Assembly: GCA_026397385.1 (NCBI GenBank)
Contig: JAPLUY010000040.1
Span: 1 to 38,083 of the forward strand
Length of the DNA stretch: 38,083 bases
Direction: 5' to 3'
DNA from: Candidatus Aenigmatarchaeota archaeon
GTDB taxonomy: Archaea > Aenigmatarchaeota > Aenigmatarchaeia > CG10238-14 > SCSR01
The notes beneath the pieces are model-generated. The model was not told the origin of the DNA and searched no databases. It saw only the letters and a program-made list of their open reading frames with translations. The number at the start of each line of letters is the position of its first letter. The first letter of the stretch is position 1. Both the position numbers and the translations under genes were made by a program. This document shows positions 3,452 to 33,765 of this stretch, in pieces.

Positions 3452-3468
3452 ATTTGCGCTCTGCAAAT
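3452..3468. promoter_or_regulatory. Perfect 6-bp inverted repeat in a divergent promoter region
   Basis: ATTTGC-GCTCT-GCAAAT lies between the divergent orphan gene (start 3406) and the HIT gene (start 3484). It is a possible operator; sequence pattern only. Confidence 0.2.
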
Positions 3469-3483
3469 CATAGATAGGTTTTC

Positions 3484-11256: not shown

Positions 11257-11289
11257 ACAAGCAAGAGAAATTATCTTTCAGGTGTTTGC

Positions 11290-11619
11290 ATGCCGAGACG
11301 CAAGAAATCTGAAGCGATGGAGGAAAAGTTCGAGAAGTCCGAGGAACCCGCGGATCGCGAGTCTGCGGAGGAGACGTCTACAGGTATGGACACGGAACAG
11401 CAGAAGGACATAAAGCTCGGCGAGTTCCAGCTCAGGCCGGACTCGGTGCTGCTCGTCAAGAAGACCACGTACAAGGGCGACGAGCGCATAGACTTCCGCG
11501 TCTGGAAGAACACGGCGATGTACAAAGGCCCCACAAAGCAGGGGTTCGTGCTGCCGATGGACATGCTCGACGACTTCATCAAGATGGTAAGCTTGATGAA
11601 GAAGAAGCTCGCCGGTTAG
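11290..11619 (+). CDS. PC4/p15-like ssDNA-binding domain protein
   Basis: An acidic N-terminus is followed by LVKKTTYKGDERIDFRVWKNTAMYKGPTKQGFVLPMDMLDDF. This resembles the PC4 C-terminal fold pattern (..IDIRE(W/Y)....G...PTKKGISL...). Confidence 0.6.
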   Translation: MPRRKKSEAMEEKFEKSEEPADRESAEETSTGMDTEQQKDIKLGEFQLRPDSVLLVKKTTYKGDERIDFRVWKNTAMYKGPTKQGFVLPMDMLDDFIKMVSLMKKKLAG

Positions 11620-11676
11620 ACGGAGCGGGCGCGGCCGTATTTCTGAACAGTTAACAATAATACTCCTCAGACGAAG

Positions 11677-11685
11677 ATATAATTA
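11677..11685 (+). promoter_or_regulatory. TATA-like box upstream of the giant ORF
   Basis: ATATAATTA is centred about 31 nt upstream of the TTG start at 11712. Confidence 0.3.
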
Positions 11686-11711
11686 GGCTTCCGCTGGTCT
11701 GGTGAAACCGT

Positions 11712-14700
11712 TTGTACAAGGGCGTTGGTAAATACGCTGTCACGTTTCTGGCTCTCGCAGTCTTAGCAGGCGTTATGCTCGGCGGCCTGAACTCGATGGT
11801 GTCAAGCATCAGCGGATTCGCCTCCGCCGTAGGTTCGCCGTCCTCCGCCGGCAGCACTTATGACGTCTACACCTCCGGATCGGTATATTACGCCAAAGAC
11901 CCTTCCGGCAAAGTCATCTATTCCGATACGGACGCCGTGTCCGTGATACAGGCCGCGATTAACAAGGCCGCATATGGCGACTTGGTGCGCATAGAAGCCG
12001 GGAACTATGCGATTTCCAAGACGCTGTACGGCAAGAACGGCGTGTCGCTTTCAGGAAACGGGGCGGTTTTCAACGCCACGCGATACACCGGCATCTACAT
12101 CCTCAAGTACGTCGGCTCCGTCGTCAGCCAGGCTTCCCTCCAGTCCGCTTCGGCCGGCAGCACGTCGATAACGGTCGGTACGCCAAACTTCGCAGCGCCC
12201 GGCGACCTGATAAAGATATACGAAGGCGCGGTGTGGAAGAGCAACGGCATGGGGCAGATGAAAGGCGAGCTGGCAATCGTGGCGTCCGTGAGCGGAAACA
12301 CGCTCGTGCTCAAGACGCCGCTGATGGACAGCTACTCCGGAGCGCTCGTGGGCAAATACTCGCCAGTGAACGACTTCGAAATCTCCGGCCTCAAGGTCGT
12401 CGGATACGAGGGGAGCCAGCACGTGGGCATAACGATCTACGGCGGCACCAACATACACATCCATGACAACTCCTTCTACGACGTGGAGGTGCAGTCTATC
12501 GCCATAAGCGACGTGACAAACGCGCTCGTCGATTATAATTATTTCGAGAGGTCGGACGCTGCCGGGATGGGGTACGGCGTTGCTCTTGGCTATGCAACGG
12601 ACCACGTGATCGTGCAGTACAACGAAGGACACCATTGCAGGCACGTCATAGCCATCGGCGGTGGGGCGTCGACGTTCCCGCTAGGCGGCGTACCGCGCTA
12701 CCTCACGATGAAATACAACAAGGCATACGACAGCGGCGCGGACGGCGGCGGCTCCAGCTCGGCCTTCGACTGCCATTCGGTGGGCGAGCACATAGACTAC
12801 ATCGGCAACGAGGTCTACGGCGGCCTGCAGGGCATATGGGTCCAGCAGTACAGCGGGCTGATAGACGGCAACATCATCCAGGGCGTGACGAACCGCGGCA
12901 TAACTGTCACCAACTACCCGAACAACGGCGGGATTACGATTTCAGGCAACACCGTCGACGGGCCGGGCGCTTATGCGCTGCTTATAACAGAACCCAACGT
13001 CCTCGTCACGGGCAACACGCTGAGGAACGGCCTAGGCAGCGGCCTCGTCATAGACGGCGCGAACGGCACGAAGGTGTACGGGAACACCATATCCAACTTC
13101 GCCGGGAACGACATTGATATCTGGCACGGGAGCAGCAACACCGACATCTCCGGAAACACCATCTCCGGAGGCGCGAACAGCATAAAGATAGAGAGCGCCG
13201 ACTGCAAGCAGACCAACATCTACGGCAACTGCTTCACGGGGCGGAGCATAGTCGACTACGGCACCGGTACAATTATAGGCAAGGACGTATGCCCGGCGAC
13301 TACAACCATCACCGTGCCTTCATCGTCCACGTCAACGACCACCACCATCGCAGGCACTTGCACGACCCACGCTCAGTGCTCCCGGGCGTGCTCTGCGTCC
13401 TGCCCGGCCGGCGTGTACGGTTGCTGCTACGGCTGCAACCTGGGCCAGTGCGTCGGCGGCGCGTGTGTATGTTTGCAAGACACGCCGTACTGTTCCAACT
13501 TCCCGCCATACCAGGTGGGCAGCTCGTGCGCGTCCGGCACAACTACAACGACGGTCCCTCCGGCGACCACGACTACGTTGCCGTCGTGCACGTTGCTCAC
13601 GCTCTCGCCGTCATCGGGCGCGCCCGGCTACACGGTCACGGCCACGATGTCATACAGTACGTGCAAGATATGCGATTATCTCGGATGCTCGGGCAGCAGC
13701 TGCGTAGGCTCGCAGGGCCGCACGGGCAGCGGCACGTTCACATCACCGGGCGCGGCCGGGACGTTCGGATACTACGCCTGCCCGGGCGGAGGGCATGCGG
13801 TGATAATCGTCACTGCTGCTACTACAACGACGATTCCGGCAGCCACGTACAAGCTTACCATGTTATCATCCGTAGGCGGCACGACCGACCCGGCCGCGGG
13901 CGTGCGCACGTACCCGAACAACACATGGGTGAACATCACCGCCTACCCCGCGTCCGGTTACAGGTTCGTGAGATGGCTGAGGAACGGCGTGAACGCCTCG
14001 ACGGACAACCCGTCTTACCTGATAACGAATGCGGACAAGACGGCACAGCCCGTGTTCGAAACAATACCGACTACGACTACCACCGTCGCAGGAAGCTGCA
14101 CGACCCACGCTCAGTGCTCCCGGGCGTGCTCTGCGTCCTGCCCGGCCGGCGTGTACGGCTGCTGCTACGGCTGCAACCTGGGCCAGTGCGTCGGAAGCAA
14201 GTGCATATGCAGGCAGGATGCGCCGTACTGTTCCAACTTCCCGCCCTATCAGGTAGGCAGCTTGTGCACGTCTGCAACGACCACCACTACATCTACTTCC
14301 ACAACTACGACAACCGTCCCTTCCGGTTACACATACACCCTATCGATCTTAGGTTCGACCATCAAGGCTGTCAACTCCGCAGGCACAACGGTAAAAACCG
14401 GCTCAGATTTCGGAGCCGTTTTCAATTATCTAGACTCCGTACTTCAGACAGGCAACTCGATTCATCTCACCGGCGGAACATATCCTGTGTCAACCTTTGC
14501 AAAACTCACGAAGGCACAAACCCTCGTAGACGCCGACTCTGGTGCCATACTGAGCGGTCAGACCGGACTCAATCAGGATCCCCTGATGATAATCCAAGGA
14601 TTGCATAACACTGTTAAAGGCATAAACTTCGTCGACAACTACAGAGGTGGGGTCTCCTGCTCCGTAGTCATAATGGGTAGCTACAACACCGTCCGGGAAT

Positions 14701-17700
14701 GCACCCTAGACGACTCCGACCGCTACGGGTTCTGCACAGACGCGGCTGACCACTTCACCATCGTATATAATACCATTTACAAGGCACAGTACGGAATCTC
14801 AGGGAGCGACAACGGAGCCAACAGCGTGTGGTCTACCAACGGATACGTAGCCTACAACACGATCGGCGACTGCAACCAGTGCGGCATAAAGATGAAGATG
14901 TGGAAGGACGTCCTGGTCACCCAGAATACAATCGATGTCGGCTACAAAGAATGGGATAACACGTCTTACAACAATGGTCAGTTTTCAGACCCAAGCCGTT
15001 ACCAGACCTACGGGAGTGTCGGAATAAGATATTACCAAGCCGATACGCCCACGCAGAACGTGACGGTCAGCTACAACACCATAATCGACACCACTCGGAA
15101 ATATCCCAAAGGAGCCGGTATACTGGTGGATGCAGATAAACATTTGGATTGGACTAGCTGTCCCTACCCTGCTTCCGGCGAGAAGATCCTGCACAACACC
15201 GTGTCAACGCCTTGGTACGGCCTAATAATCCAGCACGATGGGGTGGATGCCGAATACAACGACTTTAGCGGCGTCACTGGCAGTCCAGGCATATTCAACG
15301 GTTGGGGAATCGACATCAGGGCGAACAACTGCCAAATCATTGGCAACACTGGTTCAATAAACAATCAGGGAACAGGGAACACGATAACATCCCCGATAAC
15401 AACTTCAACGACGACCACCACCATCGCAGGCACTTGCACGACCCACGCTCAGTGCTCCCGGGCGTGCAGCGCGCTCTGCCCTGCAGGCGTGTACGGTTGC
15501 TGCTACGGCTGCAACATAGGTCAGTGCGTCGGTGGCGCCTGCATATGCGAGCAGGACACGACGTACTGCTCTAATTTCCCGCCATACCAGGTGGGCAGCT
15601 CGTGCGCGTCTGCAACGACCACGACGATCCCGGCAGCCACGTACAAGCTTACCATGTTATCATCCGTTGGCGGCACGACCGACCCGGCTGCGGGCGTGCG
15701 CACGTACCCGAACAACACATGGGTGAACATCACCGCCTATCCGGCGTCCGGTTACAAGTTCGTGAGATGGTTGAGGAACGGCGTCAACGCTTCGACGGAT
15801 AACCCGTCGTACCTAGTAACGAACGCTGACAAGACGGCCCAGCCGGTGTTCGAAGCCACGACGACCACAACAACTATTATTCAGCCGACGACATCGACGA
15901 CTGCCACTTCCACGACGACAACAAGCACAACCACTACGATTCCATCGACGACGACCACGAGACCCTCGTCCACCACGACGACTGCGATCATTCCAACCAC
16001 TACGACTCTCCTTCAAACATGCAAGCTTGCAACAGTCACGCTAAAACAGAACTGCGCGGCCGGAAGCTCGTCCGCATGCGAACAGGGCGAGACTGTTGTC
16101 GTGTCGGGCACTTATACTGGCGACTGCGCCGCGGCGGACTTCCTGCAGGCAGACGCGCTCTCGAGCGACGGCCTTTGCGACATCGAGTACCTCGGCGGGA
16201 ACATGCGAGGCATAGGCGCGTCTTCCATAACATTGTCAGGCGGGACGGTCAGTGGCGCTTGGACTGTCCCAGTGATAGCGTCGGCATGCTCCGGGAAAAT
16301 CATAAGCCCGACCGCAGCGGCGCTGTACGACGGAGGCGCGCCAGGCACGGGCACGATGGTAAACATCACGCGAACTGTCGCAGGGTCTTTCGCGCTTGCC
16401 GCAGCTGCGACTACTACGACAATCACGACGACTACGACGAGCACGACCACCACGACCATTCCGCAGCCCTGCAAACTGACGTCTGTGTCATTGTCGCCGA
16501 ACTGCGCGGCCGGAAGCCCGTCCGCATGCGAACAGGGCGAGACTGTTGTCGTGTCGGGCACTTATACTGGCGACTGCGCCGCGACGGACTTCCTGCAGGC
16601 AGACGCGCTCTCGAGCGACGGCTCGTGCACGATACAGAACGCGGGCGGCAGCATGCAAGGCATCGCCACCGCAGTATCGCCGTCCGGCGGCGCGATTTCC
16701 AGCACATGGACCGTGCCTTTCATAAGCTCTGCGTGCTACGGGACGGTCATAAGCCCGGTGCGCGCCACGCTTTATACAGGCCTAGTGTCGTCCAGCTCGG
16801 CGACCTCCGTCAGCGGCTCCTTCGCGTTTGCCGCGTGCTCCAACCACGCGCAATGCTCGCAGGTCTGCTCGTCCTCGTGCGCGGCGAACGTCTACGGCTG
16901 CTGCTCCGGGTGCAACATAGGCCAGTGCAACTCCCAGACGCACAGATGCTACTGCTCTTCCGACAGCACGTACTGCTCGTCGGCCCCGTCGTACCAAGTG
17001 GGGCAGGCGTGCGGCGCGACGACCACGATCGTGCCCACGACGACAACGATAAAACCTACTACGACCACGACGACAATGCCGGCCACAACTACTACTAAAC
17101 CGCCGACGACTACCACGACAACCACACCCACAACAACGCCTTACACGGTGTCGGCATCGGGTTCCACATACACCGCTAAAAACCCGTCCGGCGGCGTCAT
17201 CTATTCGGGCTCTTCGGCGTCGACGGCCATACAATCTGCAATAACCAGCCTGCCGTCCGGAAGGACGTCAAAGGTAAAAATCTTACTGCAAGGCGATTTC
17301 ACACTAGCCAAGACAATAACCATCGCCAATTACATGGTCCTTGAACTTAACGGTAAAATAACTCTGGCGAATTCAGCGAACCAGCATATGCTTTACGCCA
17401 GCGGTAAGAGCAACTTCGAGATTATCGGTGGGGAGTGGGACGGCAACAAGGCGAATCAGGTCGGGTATGCCTATCAGAGCGATGTCAGGGGATTCGAGTT
17501 GGAGTCGTGCACTGACTACCTCGTAAGCGGCGTGACCGTCCACAACACCGTGGACGACGCGGTAGCCTCGCTTTACTGCTCCCGGGCGACGATTGACCAC
17601 AACAACGTATACGACTGCGGCGGAGCAATCCCGCTCTATTACACTAGCGACAGCCGAGTAACCAACAACATAATTCACGACGCCCATGCCGGAATCTACA

Positions 17701-20700: not shown

Positions 20701-23700
20701 TCGTGAACACGAGCCTCGAAGCTACGAGGAGGCTCGAAGTGCTGCATGACTGGGATCCGTCCTCGTCACAATATCTGCAGGAGACGGTCTGGTACTACTT
20801 CCCGTCCTCGATCGCGCCGCTCGACGGCTGGGTGACCTTCCACAGGCCGGTCTACGAGCGGATGTGGGACCAGAACAAAGCCGTCTACTACCAGAACTTC
20901 CAGATATCGGTATCCGCGATGACCGATGGCAGGTCGGCGACGATCGGGCAGCAGATAATGGTCCTGAGCCTGGGCAAGGGCAACATCGACAACAACAACG
21001 ACGGCGTTACGGAGACGTGGACGAACATGAACGCCGACCTCTACTCCAATCGTGACTCCAGCCAGACCGTGCCCAGCTCTTGGCAGACCCAGCGGTCGGG
21101 GCTGCAGCTCCCACTTGACAAGTGGTTCAAGGTCACTTCCATTGTATACAGGAACCTCACCGACTTCAACAACGGCTACGTGAAGGTGTGGATCGACGAC
21201 AACCTCGTCTGGGACGTTCAGTGGACGAGGACGGTCGGCATCGCACCATCCGTGCTAAAAGCGATCGATTCGCTGCCGTCCGACCCTCAGGGATACTTAT
21301 GTTCGGGATTTGGTTTGTACACCGATATCGGTACGAAGCCTAAAACGATCTACGCCGATGATGTCACGATCTCCAGTTCGACGCTTTCATCATCCACGTA
21401 CAAGCTTACCATGTTATCATCCGTAGGCGGCACGATCGACCCGGTCCCCGGCGCGTACACGTATCCGAACAACACGAGGGTGAACATCACCGCCTATCCA
21501 ACGTCCGGCTACAGGTTCGTGCTATGGCTGAGGAACGGCGTTAACGCTTCGACAGACAACCCGTCATACCTGATGACGACCTCGGACAAGACGGCACAGC
21601 CGATGTTCGAAACCGTAACGACCACGACGCTCCCATCAACGACCACGACGCTCCCATCAACGACTACGACGATCAAGCCAACGACCACGACCCTTCCGCA
21701 GCCCTGCCGCCTGGCGTCCGCGTCATTGTCGCCGAACTGCGCGGGCGGCAGCTCGTCCGCATGCGAGAAAGGCGAGACGGTATCGATGTCCGGCACTTAT
21801 ACGGGCGACTGCGCCGCGGCGAACTTCCTGCAGGTCGACGCGCTATCGAGCGACGGCCTCTGCGACATCCAGTACGTCGGAGGGACCATGCAGGGCGTAA
21901 GCGCGCCTTCCATAACATTGTCTGGCGGAACGGTCAGCGGTTCATGGGCCGTACCTGTGATTGCATCCTCGTGCTCTGGTAAAACCATGAATCCTACTTA
22001 TGCAGCTCTCTGGAAAGGCGTGCCAGTCACGGGCACGCAGATTAACATGACCTCGTCGACGAGCGGCTCGTTAGCGCTCGCCGCCACTCCGACTACGACG
22101 ACAACCATAGCGCAGTCCACGACTACGACCCAGCAGAGTACCACTGCGTACGTGGTGTCGGCTTCCGGTTCCACGTACTACGCCAAGTCCCCGTCAGGAA
22201 GCACGCTCTACTCCGGCGCGTCAGCCACGTCCGCTATACAGACTGCGATAAACTCCGCAAGTGCCGGAAGCTCGGTGCTGCTGAAGGCAGCGACGTATCT
22301 TCTGGACAGTACGATATACGGCAAGAACGGAGTAAGCCTGAAGGGCGAAGCCGGATCGATACTTTCGCTCAGTAACCTCGGCACCTACGGCCAGGCCTTG
22401 GACTACAGCGGCACTACAGGCGCCTCCACGATCAGTGCCGCGCAGGCGGCAAAGGGAGCGACTTCGATAACTGTGTCGTCCGCATCGGGCATATCGGCCG
22501 GCAGCCTCGTCTTCATCTATAACAACGGCGTCGAATGGAAGGGTAACACCCGGCACCAGAAACAGGGAGAGATTCGCGCAGTAAGCTCGGTCAGCGGTGG
22601 CACCGTCTACCTGGCGCAGCCGCTCGAGGACACGTACGCGTCTGGGTCGAGTGTCGTCGTTGTCAATCCGGCGAAGAACTTCGAAGTGTCCGGACTGACA
22701 TTCAACGGAGTCCGAGGTCTTGACCAGTATGGCGTGACTGTCGAGTACGGCCAGAACGTGAAGATACATGACAACAACTTCAGCTATTGCCAACTGAACG
22801 GCGTAGGGTTCAGGAACGTCCTCGACTCGGAGATCTACAAAAACAGGATGGTGCATTCCGACACGGCCGGCTACGGGTACGGGGTGTCGCTGGCCTACGC
22901 CTGCCAGAATGTCTCGGTGTACGACAATTATATGGAGACGAACAGACACGCGATAGCCATCGGCGGCGGGTCGGGTGCGGGGATACCCAGGCATATCAAC
23001 CTGTACAGGGACCATTCATACAACGCCACGAACGCCGGCTTCGACTGCCATCCTGTCGGCGAGGACATCAACTATGTAAACTGCTGGTCTGAGAGCGACC
23101 AGCACGGGTTCAACGTCGAGATGTTCTCCGGTGTCGTTAGCGGCAACCTCGTGACGAACTCGCACGAGGAGGGCATCGAGATAAGCAACCTCGTCGGATC
23201 GGACAACGTCACGATATCTAACAACACGGTTGTCGGCTCATGGCACATGGGGATACAGTCGAACAGCAAGCGCGTCAACATACTTTACAACAACCTCACG
23301 AACTGTGGCCAGTCGGCCGGATACTACGCCATCTACCTCGCGCGCGGTTCCAACACGGACAACGACGCCATAGTCTACAACTACAGCGCCGACTATAACA
23401 ACATCTACGGGAACACCATCAAGTCGACCACCGGAAGCGGAACGACCTACATCGCCACCGGAGTGGTCGGCACGACTTACAATGCCCCAACCACGACTAC
23501 AACGACTTTGCCGTCGGCGAGCAACACTTACACAGTTTTGGTTTCGGGTTCGACATACACTTCAAAGAACCCATCGGGTTCGACAATCTACTCGGGCACC
23601 TTGGCTGCCTCCGCGATCCAGTCGGCGTTGAACTCCGTCGGGACGGGGCAGACCGTGTACATAAAAAGCGGCACCTATCCTATCAACTTGCCGCTGAGTG

Positions 23701-25520
23701 GAGGGAAGAACGGCGTCACAATAACGGGCGACATGACAACGATAATCAAAGCCAATGCTGAAATGGGGTACATGTTCTTATGGACGGGCTCAAGCGGCAC
23801 CCATCTGAACACGTTCCACCTGAATAACATCATATTCGACGGCGGCAGAACCACCGCCTGGCCTGACACGGGAACCACCGGGCTTTCCGCTGGCCCGGCA
23901 ATCGAATATGTTGATCACGTTATAGTTGATGGCATCACCGTCCAGAACACGAAACGCAATCCTCCGACCAAGGGCGCGGATGGATTAATTCTTCAGGGCG
24001 CCACCGGAGTCCCGGTGACCGACTATGAGGTGAAGAACAGCCACTTCTCCAACATATACGGCTCGGGAATCGCGGCTGCCTACATCACCCACCTCAACAT
24101 CCATGACAACGTTTTCGTGGATTGCGCCCAGTGGTATCCGATCGGAGGAGCGGTGTACGCAGGCGACGAAGTCGGCTACGTAACCCTATCCAACAACGAC
24201 ATATCCGGGCACACGGACAATGACGGCATCTACGTCGGAACCTCTAGAAGTGCCGCCACCAACGTCCTCATCACCCAGAACACCATAAACATCCAGCTCT
24301 ACGGCATGGGCGGAGGCGACACGCACCCAGAGAACCCAGGAGGATACGCGGGATCTGGGATAAAGCTGTATGGCACAGGCGGCGAGATATCGAGTAACAC
24401 CATCAACTGGAACAATGCCCACTTTAGTAATTCCACCGTAAGCTGGCCCGTCTATGTAGGCGGCATAGGGCTATGGGGTAACGGCACAAACGTTCACGAC
24501 AACATCGTCAGCAACTCCAAGTACGGCATCGAGAGCTGGAACGGGGTCACGTCGGTCGGGAACCACGTAATAACCTCGAACCAGGTCAGCGGCTGCACTT
24601 ATGGCATATATCTTCTCCAGACAGGAAGCACCGTTACAGGCAACACCCTCTCGGGCTGCGGCACCCCGGTGTACAATGCCGGAGGCAACACGGTGAGCGG
24701 CAACGCAATCGCCACTCCACAGGCTCCCATAATCGTCGATTCCACCATAAAACTGACGAGCTCGTTTGACGGCGGAGGCAGGACTTACAAGCACGGCCCT
24801 AACCTCGGAGACAACCCGATATTCAGCCTTACAGGGACCGGTGTCACGCTCTCGAACGTCGTTCTGGACGACGACAACTTCAACGGCGTCAGCGGGACGT
24901 GCGCGCTCGGAGGGACTGACAACACCATCCAGGACGTCACCCTCAACAACTGCCAGCGCTACGGCCTGATATTTACGAAAGCCACAAGGGGGACCATCCG
25001 CCACGTCACGATAACCAAGGCGCAGCACGGCATCAGCGGCAGCAGCGGCTCAGTCGGAGAGTGGAACCCGAGCACGGACTGCGTAATCGAGGACAACTAC
25101 ATCAGCGGGATGATAATAGACGGCATCAAGCTGAAGAACATGCTCAGGACCACGGTGAGGAACAACGTTATCGACGTGTACCCGTCCAACCCCGGGTACA
25201 TAGGGGACACGACGACCTACACGAAGAGCGGGATATACCTAGCAGCTTCCGACACGGCCAACAAGGATTGCACCATAGAGAACAACTACATCTACCAGTC
25301 CGCCCCACACGCACTGAAGAACCGCGGGATCCTTGTGAATCCGGACCAGACGAGCGTTACGAGCGTGTACTCTTCGGGTAACAGGATTGTAGAGAATTAC
25401 ATGGAAGGGATGGAATACGGGATCGTGGTGAAGGGGAACGATTATTATCTGGCGGACAACACCATGGCGAAAGTGAATACGCCGATACTCGACCAAGGCA
25501 CAGGAAACACTATAGTCTAG
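11712..25520 (+). CDS. Giant (4602 aa) modular secreted/surface protein: 7 beta-helix regions, a lectin/lyase-like region, Cys-rich modules and poly-Thr linkers
   Basis: Single uninterrupted 13,809-nt ORF. TTG start gives a signal-like N-terminus, MYKGVGKYAVTFLALAVLAGVMLGG. It contains repetitive N-x-(I/V)-x-x-N beta-helix turns, four internally repeated module families and long T/S/P linkers. No C-terminal TM or sorting signal was seen. Confidence 0.9.
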   Translation: MYKGVGKYAVTFLALAVLAGVMLGGLNSMVSSISGFASAVGSPSSAGSTYDVYTSGSVYYAKDPSGKVIYSDTDAVSVIQAAINKAAYGDLVRIEAGNYAISKTLYGKNGVSLSGNGAVFNATRYTGIYILKYVGSVVSQASLQSASAGSTSITVGTPNFAAPGDLIKIYEGAVWKSNGMGQMKGELAIVASVSGNTLVLKTPLMDSYSGALVGKYSPVNDFEISGLKVVGYEGSQHVGITIYGGTNIHIHDNSFYDVEVQSIAISDVTNALVDYNYFERSDAAGMGYGVALGYATDHVIVQYNEGHHCRHVIAIGGGASTFPLGGVPRYLTMKYNKAYDSGADGGGSSSAFDCHSVGEHIDYIGNEVYGGLQGIWVQQYSGLIDGNIIQGVTNRGITVTNYPNNGGITISGNTVDGPGAYALLITEPNVLVTGNTLRNGLGSGLVIDGANGTKVYGNTISNFAGNDIDIWHGSSNTDISGNTISGGANSIKIESADCKQTNIYGNCFTGRSIVDYGTGTIIGKDVCPATTTITVPSSSTSTTTTIAGTCTTHAQCSRACSASCPAGVYGCCYGCNLGQCVGGACVCLQDTPYCSNFPPYQVGSSCASGTTTTTVPPATTTTLPSCTLLTLSPSSGAPGYTVTATMSYSTCKICDYLGCSGSSCVGSQGRTGSGTFTSPGAAGTFGYYACPGGGHAVIIVTAATTTTIPAATYKLTMLSSVGGTTDPAAGVRTYPNNTWVNITAYPASGYRFVRWLRNGVNASTDNPSYLITNADKTAQPVFETIPTTTTTVAGSCTTHAQCSRACSASCPAGVYGCCYGCNLGQCVGSKCICRQDAPYCSNFPPYQVGSLCTSATTTTTSTSTTTTTVPSGYTYTLSILGSTIKAVNSAGTTVKTGSDFGAVFNYLDSVLQTGNSIHLTGGTYPVSTFAKLTKAQTLVDADSGAILSGQTGLNQDPLMIIQGLHNTVKGINFVDNYRGGVSCSVVIMGSYNTVRECTLDDSDRYGFCTDAADHFTIVYNTIYKAQYGISGSDNGANSVWSTNGYVAYNTIGDCNQCGIKMKMWKDVLVTQNTIDVGYKEWDNTSYNNGQFSDPSRYQTYGSVGIRYYQADTPTQNVTVSYNTIIDTTRKYPKGAGILVDADKHLDWTSCPYPASGEKILHNTVSTPWYGLIIQHDGVDAEYNDFSGVTGSPGIFNGWGIDIRANNCQIIGNTGSINNQGTGNTITSPITTSTTTTTIAGTCTTHAQCSRACSALCPAGVYGCCYGCNIGQCVGGACICEQDTTYCSNFPPYQVGSSCASATTTTIPAATYKLTMLSSVGGTTDPAAGVRTYPNNTWVNITAYPASGYKFVRWLRNGVNASTDNPSYLVTNADKTAQPVFEATTTTTTIIQPTTSTTATSTTTTSTTTTIPSTTTTRPSSTTTTAIIPTTTTLLQTCKLATVTLKQNCAAGSSSACEQGETVVVSGTYTGDCAAADFLQADALSSDGLCDIEYLGGNMRGIGASSITLSGGTVSGAWTVPVIASACSGKIISPTAAALYDGGAPGTGTMVNITRTVAGSFALAAAATTTTITTTTTSTTTTTIPQPCKLTSVSLSPNCAAGSPSACEQGETVVVSGTYTGDCAATDFLQADALSSDGSCTIQNAGGSMQGIATAVSPSGGAISSTWTVPFISSACYGTVISPVRATLYTGLVSSSSATSVSGSFAFAACSNHAQCSQVCSSSCAANVYGCCSGCNIGQCNSQTHRCYCSSDSTYCSSAPSYQVGQACGATTTIVPTTTTIKPTTTTTTMPATTTTKPPTTTTTTTPTTTPYTVSASGSTYTAKNPSGGVIYSGSSASTAIQSAITSLPSGRTSKVKILLQGDFTLAKTITIANYMVLELNGKITLANSANQHMLYASGKSNFEIIGGEWDGNKANQVGYAYQSDVRGFELESCTDYLVSGVTVHNTVDDAVASLYCSRATIDHNNVYDCGGAIPLYYTSDSRVTNNIIHDAHAGIYMYTEDDGIVQHVDNNVVTGNTVSRTWLSGIVVSLRGMEDFGQHNTIAYNTLIDCGTDQTHSGISIGWGLGNAVVGHADYNECHDNEIYETGAYVVSNPMVIKGVSNHVWSNTIHDVGTTAIVISGHDNLVENNSVSRVKNLASFGIELWNANSNTVRNNTVNQVPHSCIWLLNDCSGNKIDGNTIMGWGVYGAYIEGSGNYITNNKFYGLASTMIMDSGVGNVKTNNINYPTATPTTTTAPTTTTTTTTLPSCTSLTLFPASGATSYTVTATMPYSTCKLCDYLGCSGSNCMGTSIRTGSGTFTAPGAAGVFGYYACPGGGYASITVAAATTTTVPATTTTVLPTTTTSPTPAAYGYTVSTDGTNYYAKTASGNVAAQGTDFGALMNTLNGQLKTGDVVLFKNGVYLVGATTVTNANKDGITYRGESRDGAIIRAASATSTGALLVIYSGAGGMHPANNIVQSLTFDGNFNTVISPTVAIGGYNNTVENCHFINTMQYGLHAWRGHNFRFINNRVEKAQYGISTGADNTEWNTGGIIANNYITDPMEVGIKLRWIKDTLVYNNTVDVTYVTWLGDVYNGLSYDNAAGITYYHGDGPTQNVTVANNTIYDRSTTPGGTAGVWVSADNLANQGLSSSISANEKIINNTIYGTNWGIGSALPGVVIQGNTISNIVVGYSMGGMGIDLTASPNTQITSNTLVNTGISIRGSSSGVSISKNTISGGNTYWRLDGDCIGVWNDGTSTHADRAVIDGNTIKNCRRYGVDLYNYISNPVSGTTISNNCFSASASGNILDGGTGTVNTNNAACSTATTTTTTSTTSTTTTTMPSCTSLTLSPSSGAPGYTVTATMQYSTCKICDYLGCSGSSCTGSQGRTGSGTFTAPGAAGAFGYYACPGAGYGTLTVVAPTTTTTLPVTTTTTTTTSTTVPATGGTTYSADFESDDSFKWGVDGVGDYMLYGNHVTSGSPPPYWTRGGWPAYVYPAALTFTPSTQFVHGGTQSAKLSIVNTSLEATRRLEVLHDWDPSSSQYLQETVWYYFPSSIAPLDGWVTFHRPVYERMWDQNKAVYYQNFQISVSAMTDGRSATIGQQIMVLSLGKGNIDNNNDGVTETWTNMNADLYSNRDSSQTVPSSWQTQRSGLQLPLDKWFKVTSIVYRNLTDFNNGYVKVWIDDNLVWDVQWTRTVGIAPSVLKAIDSLPSDPQGYLCSGFGLYTDIGTKPKTIYADDVTISSSTLSSSTYKLTMLSSVGGTIDPVPGAYTYPNNTRVNITAYPTSGYRFVLWLRNGVNASTDNPSYLMTTSDKTAQPMFETVTTTTLPSTTTTLPSTTTTIKPTTTTLPQPCRLASASLSPNCAGGSSSACEKGETVSMSGTYTGDCAAANFLQVDALSSDGLCDIQYVGGTMQGVSAPSITLSGGTVSGSWAVPVIASSCSGKTMNPTYAALWKGVPVTGTQINMTSSTSGSLALAATPTTTTTIAQSTTTTQQSTTAYVVSASGSTYYAKSPSGSTLYSGASATSAIQTAINSASAGSSVLLKAATYLLDSTIYGKNGVSLKGEAGSILSLSNLGTYGQALDYSGTTGASTISAAQAAKGATSITVSSASGISAGSLVFIYNNGVEWKGNTRHQKQGEIRAVSSVSGGTVYLAQPLEDTYASGSSVVVVNPAKNFEVSGLTFNGVRGLDQYGVTVEYGQNVKIHDNNFSYCQLNGVGFRNVLDSEIYKNRMVHSDTAGYGYGVSLAYACQNVSVYDNYMETNRHAIAIGGGSGAGIPRHINLYRDHSYNATNAGFDCHPVGEDINYVNCWSESDQHGFNVEMFSGVVSGNLVTNSHEEGIEISNLVGSDNVTISNNTVVGSWHMGIQSNSKRVNILYNNLTNCGQSAGYYAIYLARGSNTDNDAIVYNYSADYNNIYGNTIKSTTGSGTTYIATGVVGTTYNAPTTTTTTLPSASNTYTVLVSGSTYTSKNPSGSTIYSGTLAASAIQSALNSVGTGQTVYIKSGTYPINLPLSGGKNGVTITGDMTTIIKANAEMGYMFLWTGSSGTHLNTFHLNNIIFDGGRTTAWPDTGTTGLSAGPAIEYVDHVIVDGITVQNTKRNPPTKGADGLILQGATGVPVTDYEVKNSHFSNIYGSGIAAAYITHLNIHDNVFVDCAQWYPIGGAVYAGDEVGYVTLSNNDISGHTDNDGIYVGTSRSAATNVLITQNTINIQLYGMGGGDTHPENPGGYAGSGIKLYGTGGEISSNTINWNNAHFSNSTVSWPVYVGGIGLWGNGTNVHDNIVSNSKYGIESWNGVTSVGNHVITSNQVSGCTYGIYLLQTGSTVTGNTLSGCGTPVYNAGGNTVSGNAIATPQAPIIVDSTIKLTSSFDGGGRTYKHGPNLGDNPIFSLTGTGVTLSNVVLDDDNFNGVSGTCALGGTDNTIQDVTLNNCQRYGLIFTKATRGTIRHVTITKAQHGISGSSGSVGEWNPSTDCVIEDNYISGMIIDGIKLKNMLRTTVRNNVIDVYPSNPGYIGDTTTYTKSGIYLAASDTANKDCTIENNYIYQSAPHALKNRGILVNPDQTSVTSVYSSGNRIVENYMEGMEYGIVVKGNDYYLADNTMAKVNTPILDQGTGNTIV
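11859..13290 (+). other. Right-handed parallel beta-helix region 1 (PbH1/CASH, pectin-lyase-fold-like)
   Basis: Turns such as GNTISNFAGNDIDIWHGSSNTDISGNTISGGANSIKIE, plus HCRHVIAIGGG and FDCHSVGEHIDY. It is a paralog of region 5. Boundaries are approximate. Confidence 0.6.
13359..13529 (+). repeat. Module A copy 1 (57 aa, 12 Cys)
   Basis: CTTHAQCSRACSASCPAGVYGCCYGCNLGQCVGGACVCLQDTPYCSNFPPYQVGSSC. Its first 98 nt differ from copy 2 at 1 position. Confidence 0.9.
13578..13811 (+). repeat. Module B copy 1 (78 aa, 6 Cys)
   Basis: LPSCTLLTLSPSSGAPGYTVTATMSYSTCKICDYLGCSGSSCVGSQGRTGSGTFTSPGAAGTFGYYACPGGGHAVIIV. Confidence 0.9.
13848..14060 (+). repeat. Module C copy 1 (71 aa, divergent InlB B-repeat-like)
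   Basis: YKLTMLSSVGGTTDPAAGVRTYPNNTWVNITAYPASGYRFVRWLRNGVNASTDNPSYLITNADKTAQPVFE. The pattern ..A.P..GY.F..W.. is typical of bacterial InlB B-repeat domains. Confidence 0.8.
14097..14267 (+). repeat. Module A copy 2
   Basis: CTTHAQCSRACSASCPAGVYGCCYGCNLGQCVGSKCICRQDAPYCSNFPPYQVGSLC. Confidence 0.9.
14325..15390 (+). other. Beta-helix region 2
   Basis: NTIYKAQYGISGSDNG, NTIGDCNQCGIKMK, QNTIDVGY, HNTVSTPWYGLII. Same class as regions 4 and 7. Boundaries are approximate. Confidence 0.55.
15435..15605 (+). repeat. Module A copy 3
   Basis: CTTHAQCSRACSALCPAGVYGCCYGCNIGQCVGGACICEQDTTYCSNFPPYQVGSSC. A 55-nt block spanning its 5' edge and a 35-nt block at its 3' edge are identical to copy 1. Confidence 0.9.
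15642..15854 (+). repeat. Module C copy 2
   Basis: Same 71 aa with 2 substitutions relative to copy 1 (R/K, I/V). The nucleotide differences are almost all synonymous third positions. Confidence 0.85.
15855..16019 (+). repeat. Thr-rich low-complexity linker
   Basis: ATTTTTTIIQPTTSTTATSTTTTSTTTTIPSTTTTRPSSTTTTAIIPTTTTLLQT, encoded by ACN-rich DNA. Similar shorter linkers separate most modules. Confidence 0.85.
16020..16400 (+). repeat. Module D copy 1 (about 127 aa, 6 Cys)
   Basis: CKLATVTLKQNCAAGSSSACEQGETVVVSGTYTGDCAAADFLQADALSSDGLCDIEYLGG...IASACSGKIISP...GSFALA. Confidence 0.85.
16470..16832 (+). repeat. Module D copy 2
   Basis: CKLTSVSLSPNCAAGSPSACEQGETVVVSGTYTGDCAATDFLQADALSSDGSCTIQNAGG.... 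Positions 16499-16622 match 16049-16172 at 122 of 124 nt. Confidence 0.9.
16836..17012 (+). repeat. Module A copy 4 (diverged)
   Basis: CSNHAQCSQVCSSSCAANVYGCCSGCNIGQCNSQTHRCYCSSDSTYCSSAPSYQVGQAC. Same Cys spacing with a 2-aa insertion. Confidence 0.85.
17013..17138 (+). repeat. Thr/Pro-rich low-complexity linker
   Basis: GATTTIVPTTTTIKPTTTTTTMPATTTTKPPTTTTTTTPTTT. Confidence 0.85.
17139..18392 (+). other. Beta-helix region 3
   Basis: HNNVYDCGG, NNIIHDAHAGIYMY, GNTVSRTWLSGIVV, NNTVNQVPHSCIWL, GNTIMGWGVYGAYI. The N-terminal cap TYTAKNPSGGVIYSGSSASTAIQSAI is shared with region 6. Boundaries are approximate. Confidence 0.55.
18447..18680 (+). repeat. Module B copy 2
   Basis: LPSCTSLTLFPASGATSYTVTATMPYSTCKLCDYLGCSGSNCMGTSIRTGSGTFTAPGAAGVFGYYACPGGGYASITV. 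Confidence 0.9.
18756..20113 (+). other. Beta-helix region 4
   Basis: NNRVEKAQYGIST, NNYITDPMEVGIKL, NNTIYGTNWGIG, GNTISNIVVGY, GNTIKNCRRYGVDL. Boundaries are approximate. Confidence 0.55.
20166..20399 (+). repeat. Module B copy 3
   Basis: MPSCTSLTLSPSSGAPGYTVTATMQYSTCKICDYLGCSGSSCTGSQGRTGSGTFTAPGAAGAFGYYACPGAGYGTLTV. Confidence 0.9.
20478..21375 (+). other. Beta-sandwich region, concanavalin-A-like lectin/glucanase or polysaccharide-lyase-like (tentative)
   Basis: TYSADFESDDSFKWGVDG...HGGTQSAKLSIVN...WYYFPS...WVTFHRPVYE...GYVKVWIDDNLVWDV. The assignment rests on motif pattern only. Confidence 0.4.
21399..21611 (+). repeat. Module C copy 3
   Basis: YKLTMLSSVGGTIDPVPGAYTYPNNTRVNITAYPTSGYRFVLWLRNGVNASTDNPSYLMTTSDKTAQPMFE. 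Confidence 0.85.
21705..22082 (+). repeat. Module D copy 3 (more diverged)
   Basis: CRLASASLSPNCAGGSSSACEKGETVSMSGTYTGDCAAANFLQVDALSSDGLCDIQYVGG...IASSCSGKTMNP...GSLALA. Confidence 0.85.
22146..23487 (+). other. Beta-helix region 5 (paralog of region 1)
   Basis: GKNGVSLKGEAG, HDNNFSYCQLNGVGF, TNRHAIAIGGG, FDCHPVGEDINY, NNTVVGSWHMGIQS. Boundaries are approximate. Confidence 0.6.
23521..24715 (+). other. Beta-helix region 6
   Basis: Cap TYTSKNPSGSTIYSGTLAASAIQSAL, then HDNVFVDCAQWY, SNNDISGHTDNDGIYV, HDNIVSNSKYGIESW, SNQVSGCTYGIYL. Boundaries are approximate. Confidence 0.55.
24716..25517 (+). other. Beta-helix region 7 (C-terminal)
   Basis: LNNCQRYGLIF, ITKAQHGISGS, EDNYISGMIIDGIKL, RNNVIDVYP, ENNYIYQS. 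Boundaries are approximate. Confidence 0.55.
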
Positions 25521-25534
25521 GAACGGACTAGACT

Positions 25535-32849: not shown

Positions 32850-32852
32850 GGC

Positions 32853-33725: not shown

Positions 33726-33765
33726 AGGCTTACAATTATTATTCGTGCCCCATTAAGAAAATGCT

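What the first reader, a model, noticed from the sequence alone, without database searches (positions are those of the whole stretch)
11712..25520. 13.8-kb single ORF: giant modular beta-helix / Cys-knot-like / poly-Thr surface protein
One uninterrupted ORF of 4602 codons occupies 36% of the window in an otherwise minimal gene set. The architecture read from the translation is: signal-like N-terminus - BH1 - A1 B1 C1 A2 - BH2 - A3 C2 - Thr linker - D1 D2 A4 - Thr linker - BH3 - B2 - BH4 - B3 - lectin/lyase-like - C3 D3 - BH5 - BH6 - BH7. The seven right-handed beta-helix regions fall into three paralog classes (1/5, 2/4/7, 3/6). This fold is typical of polysaccharide lyases/hydrolases, adhesins and phage tailspikes. 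The TTG start is the only way to keep the hydrophobic leader, because the first in-frame ATG (11775) falls inside it. No C-terminal anchor is visible. In a compact, possibly host-dependent archaeon this is a plausible glycan-binding or glycan-degrading attachment protein, but that function is inference.
Basis: partly seen in the sequence, partly recalled or inferred. Interest (0 to 1): 0.65.

Follow-up and report, generated by a model that had tools for sequence, protein, structure and literature searches.

The report
Giant multi-depolymerase surface protein, DPANN archaeon
A tiny, probably host-dependent archaeon (Aenigmatarchaeota) carries one 4,602-residue secreted protein that strings together seven beta-helix modules, two of them related to phage tail-spike sugar-cutting enzymes, plus a further lyase-like module; it is most likely a tool for gripping and cutting the sugar coats of other cells, but no activity has been tested.

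Summary
The ORF is real: 11712-25520 (+), TTG start, 4,602 codons, no stops. Eighteen of 22 strain differences in two public runs are synonymous third-position changes, so this frame is under purifying selection. Pfam finds Beta_helix/NosD (E 1e-82), and the 'C' modules are InlB-B-repeat-like (Flg_new_2).

- **BH1 and BH5** are homologous to the phage LKA1 gp49 O-antigen lyase (E 1.5e-19). They keep its proposed Asp497, His499 and Arg459. The BH5 model (pLDDT 87) best matches phage capsule depolymerases.
- **The 'lectin/lyase-like' module** is 60-68% identical to stand-alone secreted proteins, two of them labelled Bathyarchaeota. Its model weakly matches jelly-roll polysaccharide lyases.
- **Modules A, B and D** are unannotated Cys-rich extracellular domains. 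D occurs mainly in Aenigmatarchaeota MAGs.
- **The whole gene is an accessory insertion.** It is missing at this site from the otherwise collinear closest relative.

One correction: BH3 and BH6 are not a paralogue pair. The module order across Thr linkers and repeats could not be verified from short-read contigs.

Best reading: a secreted or surface-held array of glycan depolymerase and binding modules, used on neighbouring or host cell envelopes. It is a new variant of a known kind, of moderate interest.

The parts
11675..11711 (+). Putative promoter and ribosome-binding region: an ATATAATTA TATA-like box, GGTGA at 11701-11705, and an in-frame TGA at 11703-11705.
   Evidence: Read from the sequence. 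Similar GGTG motifs lie upstream of three other genes. Function is inferred.
11712..11843 (+). TTG start and Sec-type signal peptide or signal anchor (MYKGVGK, then hydrophobic aa 8-26, then ...GFASA|VG).
   Evidence: It is the only hydrophobic 19-mer in the protein. ATG 11775 lies inside it. The cleavage site is inferred by eye.
11844..13301 (+). BH1: beta-helix with an insertion domain, LKA1 gp49-like (class 1/5). Motifs RHVIAIGGG (aa 310) and FDCH (aa 352-355).
   Evidence: Pfam Beta_helix 1.5e-16. PHROG tail spike 5e-14. Profile hit to 4ru4. Motif positions.
13302..13577 (+). A1: 12-Cys module, preceded and followed by short Thr linkers.
   Evidence: No Pfam hit. Homologues occur in other large extracellular proteins.
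13578..13811 (+). B1: 6-Cys module, proposed to be CBM-like.
   Evidence: No Pfam hit.
13812..14069 (+). C1: Flg_new_2 (divergent InlB B-repeat) domain.
   Evidence: Pfam PF18998, 3 stretches, E 6.5e-13. Repeat structure.
14070..14291 (+). A2: 12-Cys module. A 93-nt core is 99% identical to A1.
14292..15416 (+). BH2: beta-helix of class 2/4/7, with the conserved KAQYGISG motif.
   Evidence: Pfam Beta_helix 9e-11. Class assignment. Motif.
15417..15881 (+). A3 (12-Cys module) followed by C2 (Flg_new_2).
15882..16007 (+). Core of the longest Thr-rich linker (the full Thr-rich stretch is 54 aa, 15846-16007).
   Evidence: There are 15 Thr-rich stretches in all, 365 aa in total. O-glycosylation is inferred.
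16008..16808 (+). D1 and D2: ~130-aa 6-Cys domains with the family motif DFFQIDA (here DFLQADA).
   Evidence: No Pfam hit. 154 cluster representatives at E<=1e-3. Domain alignment. Found mainly in Aenigmatarchaeota MAGs.
16809..17141 (+). A4 (divergent 12-Cys module) followed by a Thr/Pro linker.
17142..18401 (+). BH3: a singleton beta-helix that shares only the common N-terminal cap. This block may be variable in the population.
   Evidence: Pfam Beta_helix 1.4e-25. Comparison with other BH modules. Lower depth and a 49-nt unitig joining 17120 to 18411 in frame.
18402..18686 (+). Thr linker followed by B2.
   Evidence: The runs carry an in-frame 9-nt insertion at 18426.
18687..20111 (+). BH4: beta-helix of class 2/4/7.
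   Evidence: Pfam Beta_helix 1e-19. PHROG tail spike 3.5e-5. Class assignment.
20112..20396 (+). Thr linker followed by B3.
20397..21398 (+). X: beta-jelly-roll module resembling polysaccharide lyases (core about aa 2920-3225).
   Evidence: 19 homologues at 39-68% identity (most 60-68%), all stand-alone or short fragments; two carry PF14099. Model pLDDT 65. Best folds are PL36, PL14 and PL20 lyases, E 4e-6, TM 0.35-0.47.
21399..22091 (+). C3 (Flg_new_2) followed by a linker and D3.
22092..23516 (+). BH5: beta-helix with an insertion domain, LKA1 gp49-like (class 1/5). Motifs RHAIAIGGG (aa 3745) and FDCH (aa 3777-3780).
   Evidence: PHROG tail protein 2e-24. AF2 pLDDT 87. Foldseek 7w1c at 1e-17 and BFVD at 7e-21. 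Profile hit to 4ru4 at 1.5e-19. tblastn hits in 29 phage records, tail-spike genes among those listed.
23517..24746 (+). BH6: divergent beta-helix with a weak full-length similarity to BH1 and BH5.
   Evidence: 24-25 bits by phmmer over the full length. No Pfam hit when tested alone.
24747..25520 (+). BH7: beta-helix of class 2/4/7 without the N-terminal cap, abutting BH6 with no linker, followed by the stop codon.
   Evidence: Pfam Beta_helix 4e-19. Class assignment. No C-terminal hydrophobic segment.

Best explanation
The gene encodes a Sec-exported, extracellular or surface-retained giant protein of an Aenigmatarchaeota (DPANN) archaeon. It works as a chain of glycan-recognising and glycan-cleaving modules.

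Proposed mechanism:
- The N-terminal signal sends the chain across the membrane. If the signal is not cleaved, it tethers the protein to the cell.
- Fifteen Thr-rich linkers, probably O-glycosylated and extended, space out eight large modules.
- Two of these modules (BH1, BH5) are tail-spike-type beta-helix polysaccharide lyases. One (X) is a jelly-roll lyase-like module. Five more beta-helices have unknown specificity.
- Small disulfide-rich modules (A, B, D) and InlB-B-repeat-like modules (C) sit between them and act as binding or spacer domains, as CBMs do in CAZymes.
- Like a phage with several tail spikes, the protein would bind surface polysaccharides of neighbouring cells, most plausibly the archaeal host, and depolymerise them locally. 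That would let the small cell reach and hold the host envelope.

What is shown: the ORF, export signal, folds, homology, partly conserved catalytic residues and accessory-gene status. What is inferred: enzymatic activity, substrate, host, O-glycosylation and tethering.
For: - The ORF is intact and selected: 18 of 22 strain variants are synonymous.
- It has an N-terminal signal and no other hydrophobic segment.
- Beta_helix and NosD hits are strong and multiple.
- The BH1/BH5 profile hits LKA1 gp49 (4ru4) at E 1.5e-19. This is an experimentally shown O-antigen lyase (PMC5701251). The alignment covers the insertion domain. It conserves Asp497 and His499 (FDCH) and Arg459 (RHxIAIGGG).
- The BH5 model has pLDDT 87. 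Its best structural matches are the Klebsiella phage K1 capsule lyase 7w1c (E 1e-17, TMq 0.64), depolymerase S2-4 of phage K64-1, and the AP22, LKA1 and phi297 tail spikes. In BFVD it matches phage tail spikes at E 7e-21, TMq 0.74. PHROG tail-spike families also hit, and phage records match by tblastn.
- X is 60-68% identical to most of 19 stand-alone homologues; the full-length ones carry an N-terminal hydrophobic, signal-like stretch (read from the alignment). Two of the 19 carry PF14099, and one sits in a glycan-biosynthesis cluster. The X fold best matches PL36, PL14 and PL20 lyases.
- D modules co-occur elsewhere with CBM60, CHB_HEX_C, G8 plus CEMIP beta-helix, and Pel9A-like domains. B follows another domain through a Thr linker in P0020.
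- The organism is a DPANN archaeon.
- The gene is a 13.9-kb insertion that is absent at the syntenic site of three relatives, as expected for a fast-turnover interaction gene.
- In the cultivated DPANN Nanobdella, pectin-lyase-fold and lectin-like extracellular proteins have been proposed for host-envelope interaction (bioRxiv 10.1101/2023.10.27.564410).
- Gene flow from Bathyarchaeota to Aenigmarchaeota is documented (PMC8407114).
Against: - No activity, expression or localisation data exist. No RNA run holds the gene.
- LKA1 His494 is not conserved, and Arg329 is only approximately matched in BH5 and absent in BH1. The gp49 active site is itself only 'putative'.
- Five of the seven beta-helices have no characterised relative, and beta-helices can be purely adhesive or structural.
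- The X model is of low confidence (pLDDT 65, TM <= 0.47), and X itself gets no Pfam hit.
- The host is unknown. The Bathyarchaeota link rests on two protein labels and one MAG, and MAG binning can be wrong.
- No retention mechanism other than the N-terminus is visible.
- Module order across the repeats is unverified.
Confidence: 0.55

Rival explanations
1. Nutritional exo-enzyme. The protein is a secreted multi-catalytic CAZyme that breaks down environmental polysaccharides (biofilm EPS, plant or algal polymers in freshwater sediment) to feed the cell. It would have no specific role in contacting a host.
For: The architecture of catalytic modules, Thr linkers and small binding modules is the classic CAZyme layout. 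There is no cell-wall anchor. The sample is a freshwater sediment metagenome. Carbohydrate metabolism genes are reported in Aenigmarchaeota (PMC8407114). D-module relatives carry CBM60 and Pel9A-like domains.
Against: The closest characterised relatives of BH1 and BH5 are phage depolymerases for cell-surface capsule and O-antigen, not plant-polymer enzymes. The only stand-alone X homologue whose neighbourhood was examined lies in a cell-glycan biosynthesis cluster. No sugar transporters or catabolic genes were seen among the ORFs scanned next to the gene. A released 4,602-aa enzyme would be costly for a cell with a very small genome.
Confidence: 0.2
2. Non-catalytic structural protein or adhesin. 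The beta-helices are rigid rods for cell-cell or cell-surface adhesion, or part of an outer sheath or S-layer-like coat. Analogues are the PfbA and filamentous-haemagglutinin-type adhesins. No bonds are cleaved.
For: The beta-helix adhesin PfbA is among the structural matches. Five of the seven beta-helices have no enzyme relative. Thr-rich glycosylated regions are typical of archaeal surface glycoproteins (general knowledge). The protein is very large and repetitive.
Against: Conservation of the gp49 Asp, His and Arg residues in both BH1 and BH5 and in their stand-alone homologues suggests a maintained active site. There is no S-layer domain and no C-terminal TM or PGF-CTERM-type anchor. The gene is absent from the closest relative, which is unlikely for an essential envelope component.
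Confidence: 0.15
3. Assembly artefact. The single ORF is a chimera in which blocks from several paralogous genes or strains were joined through Thr-linker and repeat sequences. The true gene(s) would be shorter or differently ordered.
For: Public-run contigs break at every repeat or linker. Alternative joints exist only at linkers. A 49-nt unitig joins 17120 to 18411 and skips BH3. BH3 depth is lower (6.1 and 4.0, against 9.6 and 7.7 on either side in X1). Window 18338-18399 has zero depth in X1 and X2.
Against: Both ends of the ORF are on long contigs continuous with the single-copy flanks. The long unique blocks listed lie at similar depth (6-11x in X1). None of them carries a stop in this frame or a second signal peptide, so they are internal pieces of very long ORF(s) whatever their order. 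Internal DNA repeats are mostly 66-89% identical, with only one 93-nt stretch at 99%. The skipped segment is exactly 430 codons, so it could equally be a real in-frame population variant.
Confidence: 0.1

Closest known systems
Phage tail-spike depolymerases of the LKA1 gp49 / phi297 gp61 / Klebsiella K1-lyase type (PDB 4ru4, 4ru5, 7w1c, 9k4a)
   Same: BH1 and BH5 share detectable sequence homology with gp49 (E 1.5e-19). They share the beta-helix interrupted by an insertion domain and the Asp497, His499 and Arg459 equivalents. BH5 has TMq 0.61-0.64 to the K1 lyase and S2-4 structures (0.52-0.60 to 4ru4/4ru5) and 0.74 to predicted phage tail spikes.
   Different: There is no virion-binding N-terminal domain and no discoidin C-terminal domain. 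Trimer formation is unknown. His494 is not conserved. Identity is only ~17-18%. The modules are embedded twice in a cellular 4,602-aa chain of an archaeon. No close relative was found in IMG/VR.
Pectin-lyase-fold and lectin-like extracellular proteins of cultivated DPANN (Nanobdella aerobiophila MJ1_0451, 0701, 0776 and 0179; bioRxiv 10.1101/2023.10.27.564410)
   Same: These are DPANN extracellular proteins with signal peptides that combine parallel beta-helix and concanavalin-like folds. They are proposed to act on glycosylated host envelopes.
   Different: Those proteins are 908-1,320 aa with one beta-helix plus Ig-like folds and many N-glycosylation sites. This protein is 3.5-5 times longer and has seven beta-helices, Thr linkers, Cys-rich modules and fewer sequons than expected (33 against 74). 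Sequence homology between them was not tested.
Jelly-roll polysaccharide lyases (Pfam PF14099 Polysacc_lyase; PL36 Aly36B, PL14 vAL-1, PL20 glucuronan lyase)
   Same: The X module's homologues P0015 and P0019 carry PF14099. The X model's best PDB matches are these lyases.
   Different: X itself scores below Pfam reporting. TM is only 0.35-0.47 on a pLDDT-65 model. Catalytic residues were not mapped. The X family (about 345-aa stand-alone proteins) is unannotated.
Giant multi-domain envelope-attacking proteins of small or predatory prokaryotes (Omnitrophota 'Archaeovorins', bioRxiv 10.1101/2023.11.21.568195; Nanohaloarchaeota SPEARE proteins)
   Same: Each is one very large gene in a small or host-dependent cell. 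Each combines adhesion and envelope-degrading domains, and each is prone to assembly fragmentation.
   Different: The domain content is different. None of these domains is found here.
Multimodular CAZymes and cellulosomal enzymes (catalytic modules, Thr/Pro linkers and CBMs)
   Same: The layout of large modules separated by Thr-rich linkers and followed by small binding-type modules matches. A-module relatives carry dockerin and CARDB domains, and D-module relatives carry CBM60.
   Different: Eight large modules in one chain is far more than usual. The small modules A, B and D are not known CBM families (no Pfam hit).

Membership tests
Right-handed parallel beta-helix (Pfam Beta_helix PF13229 / NosD PF05048; pectin-lyase fold) | An HMM match above the gathering score in each proposed region. 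| tested here: met
   The whole protein scores 275.8 bits over 12 stretches. BH1, BH2, BH3, BH4 and BH7 pass individually. BH5 was not scanned alone; it rests on its fold and on homologue P0023's PF13229. BH6 alone gives no hit and only aligns to BH1 and BH5.
Right-handed parallel beta-helix | A three-strand-per-coil helical fold. | tested here: met
   The BH5 AF2 model has pLDDT 87 and pTM 0.88 with a regular E-E-E coil pattern. The other BH modules were not modelled.
LKA1 gp49-type tail-spike polysaccharide lyase | Sequence homology of the catalytic module, including the beta-barrel insertion domain (gp49 residues 284-370). | tested here: met
   The BH1/BH5 profile hits 4ru4_A at E 1.5e-19. 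Chain positions 57-349 correspond to gp49 residues 224-516, which span the insertion domain.
LKA1 gp49-type tail-spike polysaccharide lyase | The proposed active-site residues Asp497, His494, His499, Arg459 and Arg329. | tested here: inconclusive
   Asp497, His499 and Arg459 are conserved in BH1, BH5, P0023 and P0024. At the His494 position BH5 has Ala, so it is not conserved. The Arg329 equivalent is shifted by one residue in BH5 and absent in BH1.
LKA1 gp49-type tail-spike polysaccharide lyase | [quoted passage not shown] | tested here: not met
   The alignment stops at chain position 349 of 602. No phage genes were found among the neighbouring ORFs scanned with Pfam. No IMG/VR relative was found. 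The module therefore works like the catalytic module but is not a tail spike.
LKA1 gp49-type tail-spike polysaccharide lyase | Beta-elimination (lyase) activity on a uronic-acid-containing surface polysaccharide. | not testable with these tools
   This needs a biochemical assay.
Jelly-roll polysaccharide lyase (PF14099; PL14, PL20, PL36-like) for module X | An HMM match to PF14099. | tested here: not met
   X alone gives 0 families at E<=1. Only two of its 19 homologues carry a precomputed PF14099 hit.
Jelly-roll polysaccharide lyase for module X | A beta-jelly-roll fold superposable on known lyases. | tested here: inconclusive
   The best hits are 6kcw (PL36, E 3.6e-6), 3gne and 5gmt (PL14) and 2zzj (PL20). 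However, TM is 0.34-0.47 and model pLDDT is 65. Lectins, neprosin and GH131 also match.
Flg_new_2 / divergent InlB B-repeat (PF18998) for module C | An HMM match above the gathering score. | tested here: met
   48.9 bits against a cutoff of 23.6, in 3 stretches.
Archaeal S-layer glycoprotein | An S-layer domain and/or a C-terminal TM or PGF-CTERM anchor, and presence in close relatives. | tested here: not met
   There is no S-layer Pfam hit and no C-terminal hydrophobic segment. The gene is absent at the syntenic site of three relatives.
Nanohaloarchaeota SPEARE giant proteins | Serine protease, adhesion and restriction-endonuclease domains (definition from my own knowledge). | tested here: not met
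   Pfam finds only Beta_helix, NosD and Flg_new_2.
Cystine-knot / known Cys-rich CBM (for example hevein CBM18) for module A | An HMM match or the characteristic Cys spacing. | tested here: not met
   There is no Pfam hit at E<=1. The module has 12 Cys in about 57 aa, with a spacing that differs by eye from the hevein pattern. Disulfide topology was not tested.

The most novel reading that the evidence does not exclude
The protein is the cellular, single-chain equivalent of a multi-tail-spike phage. It would be a host-range determinant in which each beta-helix or lyase cassette targets a different envelope glycan. Cassettes would be gained, lost and exchanged by recombination at the Thr-linker DNA. 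Some would come from the hosts' own glycan-processing enzymes, as suggested by X and the C+BH architecture shared with Bathyarchaeia. The in-frame 430-codon BH3-skipping joint and the gene's absence from the nearest relative would be snapshots of this cassette turnover. This would be a modular way for a DPANN episymbiont to switch or broaden hosts.
Probability: 0.2. Interest if true: 0.8.

Novelty: new variant of a known kind. Interest (0 to 1): 0.55.

Why it matters
How DPANN archaea recognise and breach the envelopes of their hosts is largely unknown, and no Aenigmatarchaeota host has been identified. This gene offers concrete, expressible modules: two tail-spike-type lyase domains with mappable catalytic residues and one jelly-roll lyase-like domain. 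Their substrates could point to the host's surface glycan.

The gene is an accessory insertion with modules shared with Bathyarchaeia-labelled sequences. That suggests a link between host interaction and gene exchange. It also defines three unannotated extracellular domain families (A, B, D). The D family is seen mainly in Aenigmatarchaeota MAGs in the one GTDB scan made.

If the cassette-turnover reading holds, this would be a cellular parallel to the evolution of phage receptor-binding proteins.

Tried and rejected
- **Whole-protein homology search.** It timed out, probably because of the poly-Thr words. I used single modules instead.
- **Whole protein against PDB sequences.** No hit. BH3, BH6 and the 2/4/7 profile also gave nothing meaningful.
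- **Pfam on A, B, D and X alone.** Nothing at E<=1. NCBIfam found only a generic beta-helix repeat.
- **Orthologue search with the A1-B1-C1-A2 segment.** None was found in GTDB species representatives. In JGI metagenomes only isolated B or A modules turned up, in other proteins. No full-length orthologue was found anywhere.
- **BH1/BH5 profile in IMG/VR.** No relative was found, so a prophage origin is unsupported. No phage or integrase genes were found among the neighbouring ORFs scanned, and the window has no tRNA.
- **RNA evidence.** No RNA run holds the gene.
- **Cluster look-up for taxonomy of D and X homologues.** No names were returned.
- **Large ORFs near Dph2 in relatives.** I checked them as possible counterparts. 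They are intein-containing MCM and Lhr helicase genes and are unrelated.
- **Class III (type IV pilin) signal.** The N-terminus has KG followed by VGKY, which does not fit the usual motif of a hydrophobic run directly after the cleavage site (by eye). I rejected it tentatively.
- **S-layer and SPEARE membership.** Both were rejected (see the membership tests).
- **GH5-like look of P0020's N-terminal part.** Pfam does not support it, so I make no such claim.
- **Depth argument for a BH3-lacking variant.** It is weak, because block depths vary from 6 to 11x anyway.


Full report
**1. The observation**

The ORF listing gives one ORF at 11712-25520 (+), 4,602 aa, with a TTG start. Translation shows no internal stop. 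It occupies 36% of the window.

The sequence just upstream reads ...ATATAATTAGGCTTCCGCTGGTCTGGTGAAACCG-TTG.
- An in-frame TGA at 11703-11705 makes the TTG the first possible start.
- The only other candidate, ATG 11775, lies inside the one hydrophobic segment of the protein (aa 8-26, YAVTFLALAVLAGVMLGGL). That segment is preceded by two Lys and followed by ...GFASA|VG.
- GGTGA sits 6 nt before the TTG, and GGTG-type motifs precede three other genes of the window.

The frame is under selection. Of 22 single-base differences between the window and contigs of two public runs, 18 are synonymous third-position changes (binomial P = 4e-6). The one indel is 9 nt and in frame, in a Thr linker.

**2. 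Is it one gene?**

The sequence is found in freshwater-sediment metagenome runs.
- In runs X1 and X2, one contig joins the upstream flank to the start, BH1 and A1 (11000-13345). Another joins BH5, BH6, BH7 and the stop to the downstream gene (23017-26000+).
- The unique inner blocks are present with 0-1 differences, apart from the BH4 block (12-17 differences), at depths like the flanks.
- Contigs break at the internal repeats (A/B/C at 13345-14221, D at 15464-16593) and at Thr linkers.
- Alternative joints occur only in linkers. One is a 49-nt unitig joining 17120 to 18411, which skips BH3 by exactly 430 codons. BH3 depth is somewhat lower, and window 18338-18399 has zero depth in X1 and X2.
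- Internal DNA repeats are 66-89% identical, apart from one 93-nt stretch at 99%.

None of the long unique blocks listed has a stop in this frame or a second signal peptide. They are therefore interior pieces of very long ORF(s) whatever their order. A mis-join of short genes is unlikely, but the order and number of modules are not proven.

**3. Anatomy**

Chunked self-BLAST and phmmer give this layout:

signal - BH1 - A1 B1 C1 A2 - BH2 - A3 C2 - linker - D1 D2 A4 - linker - BH3 - B2 - BH4 - B3 - X - C3 D3 - BH5 - BH6 BH7

There are 15 Thr-rich stretches, 365 aa in total.

- **Pfam.** Beta_helix (E 1e-82, 12 stretches), NosD (8 stretches) and Flg_new_2 (3 stretches, the C modules).
- **Classes.** BH1/BH5 (216 bits) and BH2/BH4/BH7 (123, 58, 54 bits) are real.
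- **BH3 and BH6.** They share only the ~80-aa N-terminal cap (Y-x-V-x-x-S-G-S-x-Y-x-A-K-x-P-S-G...A-I-Q-x-A-I) that BH1 and BH5 also have. BH6 is weakly similar to BH1 and BH5 over its whole length.
- **A, B, D and X.** A has 12 Cys, and B and D have 6 Cys each. None of the four has a Pfam hit.

**4. BH1 and BH5**

- PHROGs assigns them to tail-spike or tail families (5e-14 and 2e-24).
- A profile of BH5, BH1, BH6 and two metagenomic homologues hits phage LKA1 gp49 (PDB 4ru4) at E 1.5e-19 over chain positions 57-349.
- LKA1 gp49 is an experimentally shown O-antigen lyase. Its proposed active site is Asp497 (critical), His494, His499, Arg459 and, from the insertion domain, Arg329 (PMC5701251).
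- With chain index + 167 equal to gp49 numbering, all five residue types fall where the paper says. In the alignment, Asp497 and His499 align with the invariant FDCH motif (aa 352-355 and 3777-3780). Arg459 aligns with the Arg of RHxIAIGGG (aa 310 and 3745). His494 is not conserved. Arg329 has a neighbour Arg in BH5 only.
- The AF2 model of BH5 is confident (pLDDT 87, pTM 0.88).
- Its best matches are the Klebsiella phage K1 capsule lyase (7w1c, E 1e-17, TMq 0.64), depolymerase S2-4 of phage K64-1, and the AP22, LKA1 and phi297 tail spikes. Among predicted viral structures it matches phage tail spikes at E 7e-21, TMq 0.74.
- tblastn finds 29 phage records; the 12 listed are 23-28% identical and most of these matches lie in genes annotated as tail spike or tail fibre.

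**5. Module X**

- Nineteen homologues were found, most at 60-68% identity. All are stand-alone or short fragments; the full-length ones are about 345 aa with an N-terminal hydrophobic, signal-like stretch (by eye).
- Two are labelled Candidatus Bathyarchaeota, and two carry PF14099 Polysacc_lyase.
- One lies in a glycan-biosynthesis cluster of glycosyltransferases, an epimerase and DUF2206.
- The model is mediocre (pLDDT 65). Its core is a beta-sandwich whose best PDB matches are jelly-roll lyases PL36, PL14 and PL20 (E about 4e-6, TM 0.35-0.47). Lectins and other jelly-rolls follow.

**6. Small modules**

- **D and A.** An exhaustive search with D1-D2-A4 finds 154 cluster representatives (76 at E<=1e-10). 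Many are in proteins of 600-2,900 aa.
- **D-bearing proteins** carry CBM60, CHB_HEX_C, Big_7, G8 plus CEMIP beta-helix, Pel9A-like and FG-GAP/ASPIC domains.
- **A-bearing proteins** carry CARDB, dockerin, LTD and Flg_new_2.
- **Taxonomy of D.** In GTDB genomes, D occurs mainly in Aenigmatarchaeota MAGs, including relatives of this organism.
- **B** occurs after another domain and a Thr linker in P0020, and in Cys-rich, Thr-linked proteins of low-GC contigs.
- **Shared architecture.** A Bathyarchaeia MAG encodes a 1,045-aa Flg_new_2 + BH1/5-like protein. P0023 has the same C+BH order.

**7. Organism and context**

- Neighbours are housekeeping genes: HIT, AspRS, Dph2, AdoHcy hydrolase, methyltransferase, radical SAM and RtcB. 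A type-IV-filament assembly set (two T2SSF-like genes and one T2SSE-like ATPase) is also present.
- RtcB and Dph2 relatives are Aenigmatarchaeota MAGs.
- The window is collinear at 71-86% nt identity with JBDRGB010000006.1 (L082). The exception is that 11610-25535, exactly the giant gene with its promoter, corresponds to about 20 bp there.
- The two more distant relatives compared (L083, L085) also lack it at that site. The gene is therefore a lineage-specific accessory insertion.
- Its GC content (0.54-0.63) matches that of the genome.
- No tRNA or Rfam element is present in the window.

**8. Mechanism**

The most likely reading is a Sec-exported chain of glycan-binding and glycan-cleaving modules held apart by glycosylated Thr linkers. 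It would be used on the surface polysaccharides of neighbouring cells, most plausibly the host.

The grounds are these:
- The best characterised relatives cut cell-surface capsule and O-antigen.
- X relatives sit with cell-glycan biosynthesis genes.
- The organism belongs to a host-dependent clade.
- The gene is variable between close relatives.
- Similar but smaller pectin-lyase-fold and lectin-like proteins have been proposed for host interaction in cultivated Nanobdella.
- Bathyarchaeota-to-Aenigmarchaeota gene transfer is documented.

Activity, substrate, host, tethering and glycosylation are all inferred. The rivals are a nutritional exo-enzyme, a non-catalytic adhesin or coat protein, and an assembly chimera.

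**9. Novelty**

Giant surface proteins and pectin-lyase-fold proteins in DPANN and other small-celled or predatory prokaryotes are known as a kind. What is unusual here:
- the number of depolymerase-type modules in one chain;
- the demonstrable homology to a characterised phage lyase;
- the unannotated domain families A, B and D;
- the accessory, possibly cassette-variable nature of the gene.

No full-length orthologue was found. I rate it a new variant of a known kind, with interest 0.55.

Noticed in passing
window 17120-18411 (BH3 block): A 49-nt unitig in run X1 (depth 4.7) joins the Thr linker before BH3 to the linker after it, skipping exactly 1,290 nt (430 codons, in frame). BH3 depth is 6.1 and 4.0, against 9.6 and 7.7 on either side. 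This may be a population variant that lacks one beta-helix cassette, or a sign of linker mis-assembly.
   Followed up: partly
window 18426 and 18338-18399: Both runs carry an in-frame 9-nt insertion (CGACCGCAC) in the Thr linker before B2, and their contigs diverge from the window upstream of 18411. Window 18338-18399 has zero depth in both runs (X1 and X2).
   Followed up: partly
window 2625-3938: This stretch is absent from the otherwise collinear relative L082 and has lower GC (0.49-0.53). It holds a 269-aa ORF of unknown function (2639-3448, minus strand) and a HIT-domain ORF (3484-3939). It looks like a second small insertion.
   Followed up: partly
window 31842-35970 (- strand): Two T2SSF-like membrane proteins and a 734-aa T2SSE-type ATPase with a weak, sub-threshold PilB3_C match: a type-IV-filament (pilus or archaellum-like) assembly set about 6 kb downstream of the giant gene. 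It may be relevant to cell-cell contact.
   Followed up: no
window 8608-9861; L085 6177-9545: The 417-aa ORF upstream of Dph2 has weak Ig-like hits. At the same position, relative L085 has a 1,123-aa protein with Disintegrin domains. This looks like a second variable slot for a surface protein.
   Followed up: partly
window 11712-25520: N-x-S/T sequons are about two-fold depleted (33 observed against 74 expected from composition), although the protein is rich in N, S and T. No explanation was tested.
   Followed up: no
window 19253-19315 (BH4): A cluster of 12 differences in 63 nt against runs X1 and X2. Ten are synonymous. This is a local patch of strain divergence or recombination.
   Followed up: partly
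window 25535-27043 (- strand): The AdoHcy hydrolase ORF is 502 aa, but the Pfam domain starts at residue 87. Either there is an N-terminal extension or the true start is further downstream.
   Followed up: no
L086, L091, L092, L095 (relatives): MCM genes in related Aenigmatarchaeota carry one or more inteins with LAGLIDADG endonuclease domains.
   Followed up: no
window 13289-14608 and 16019-17098 (+ strand, other frames): Long alternative-frame ORFs of 439 and 359 aa lie inside the giant gene. They are probably by-products of its biased composition.
   Followed up: no
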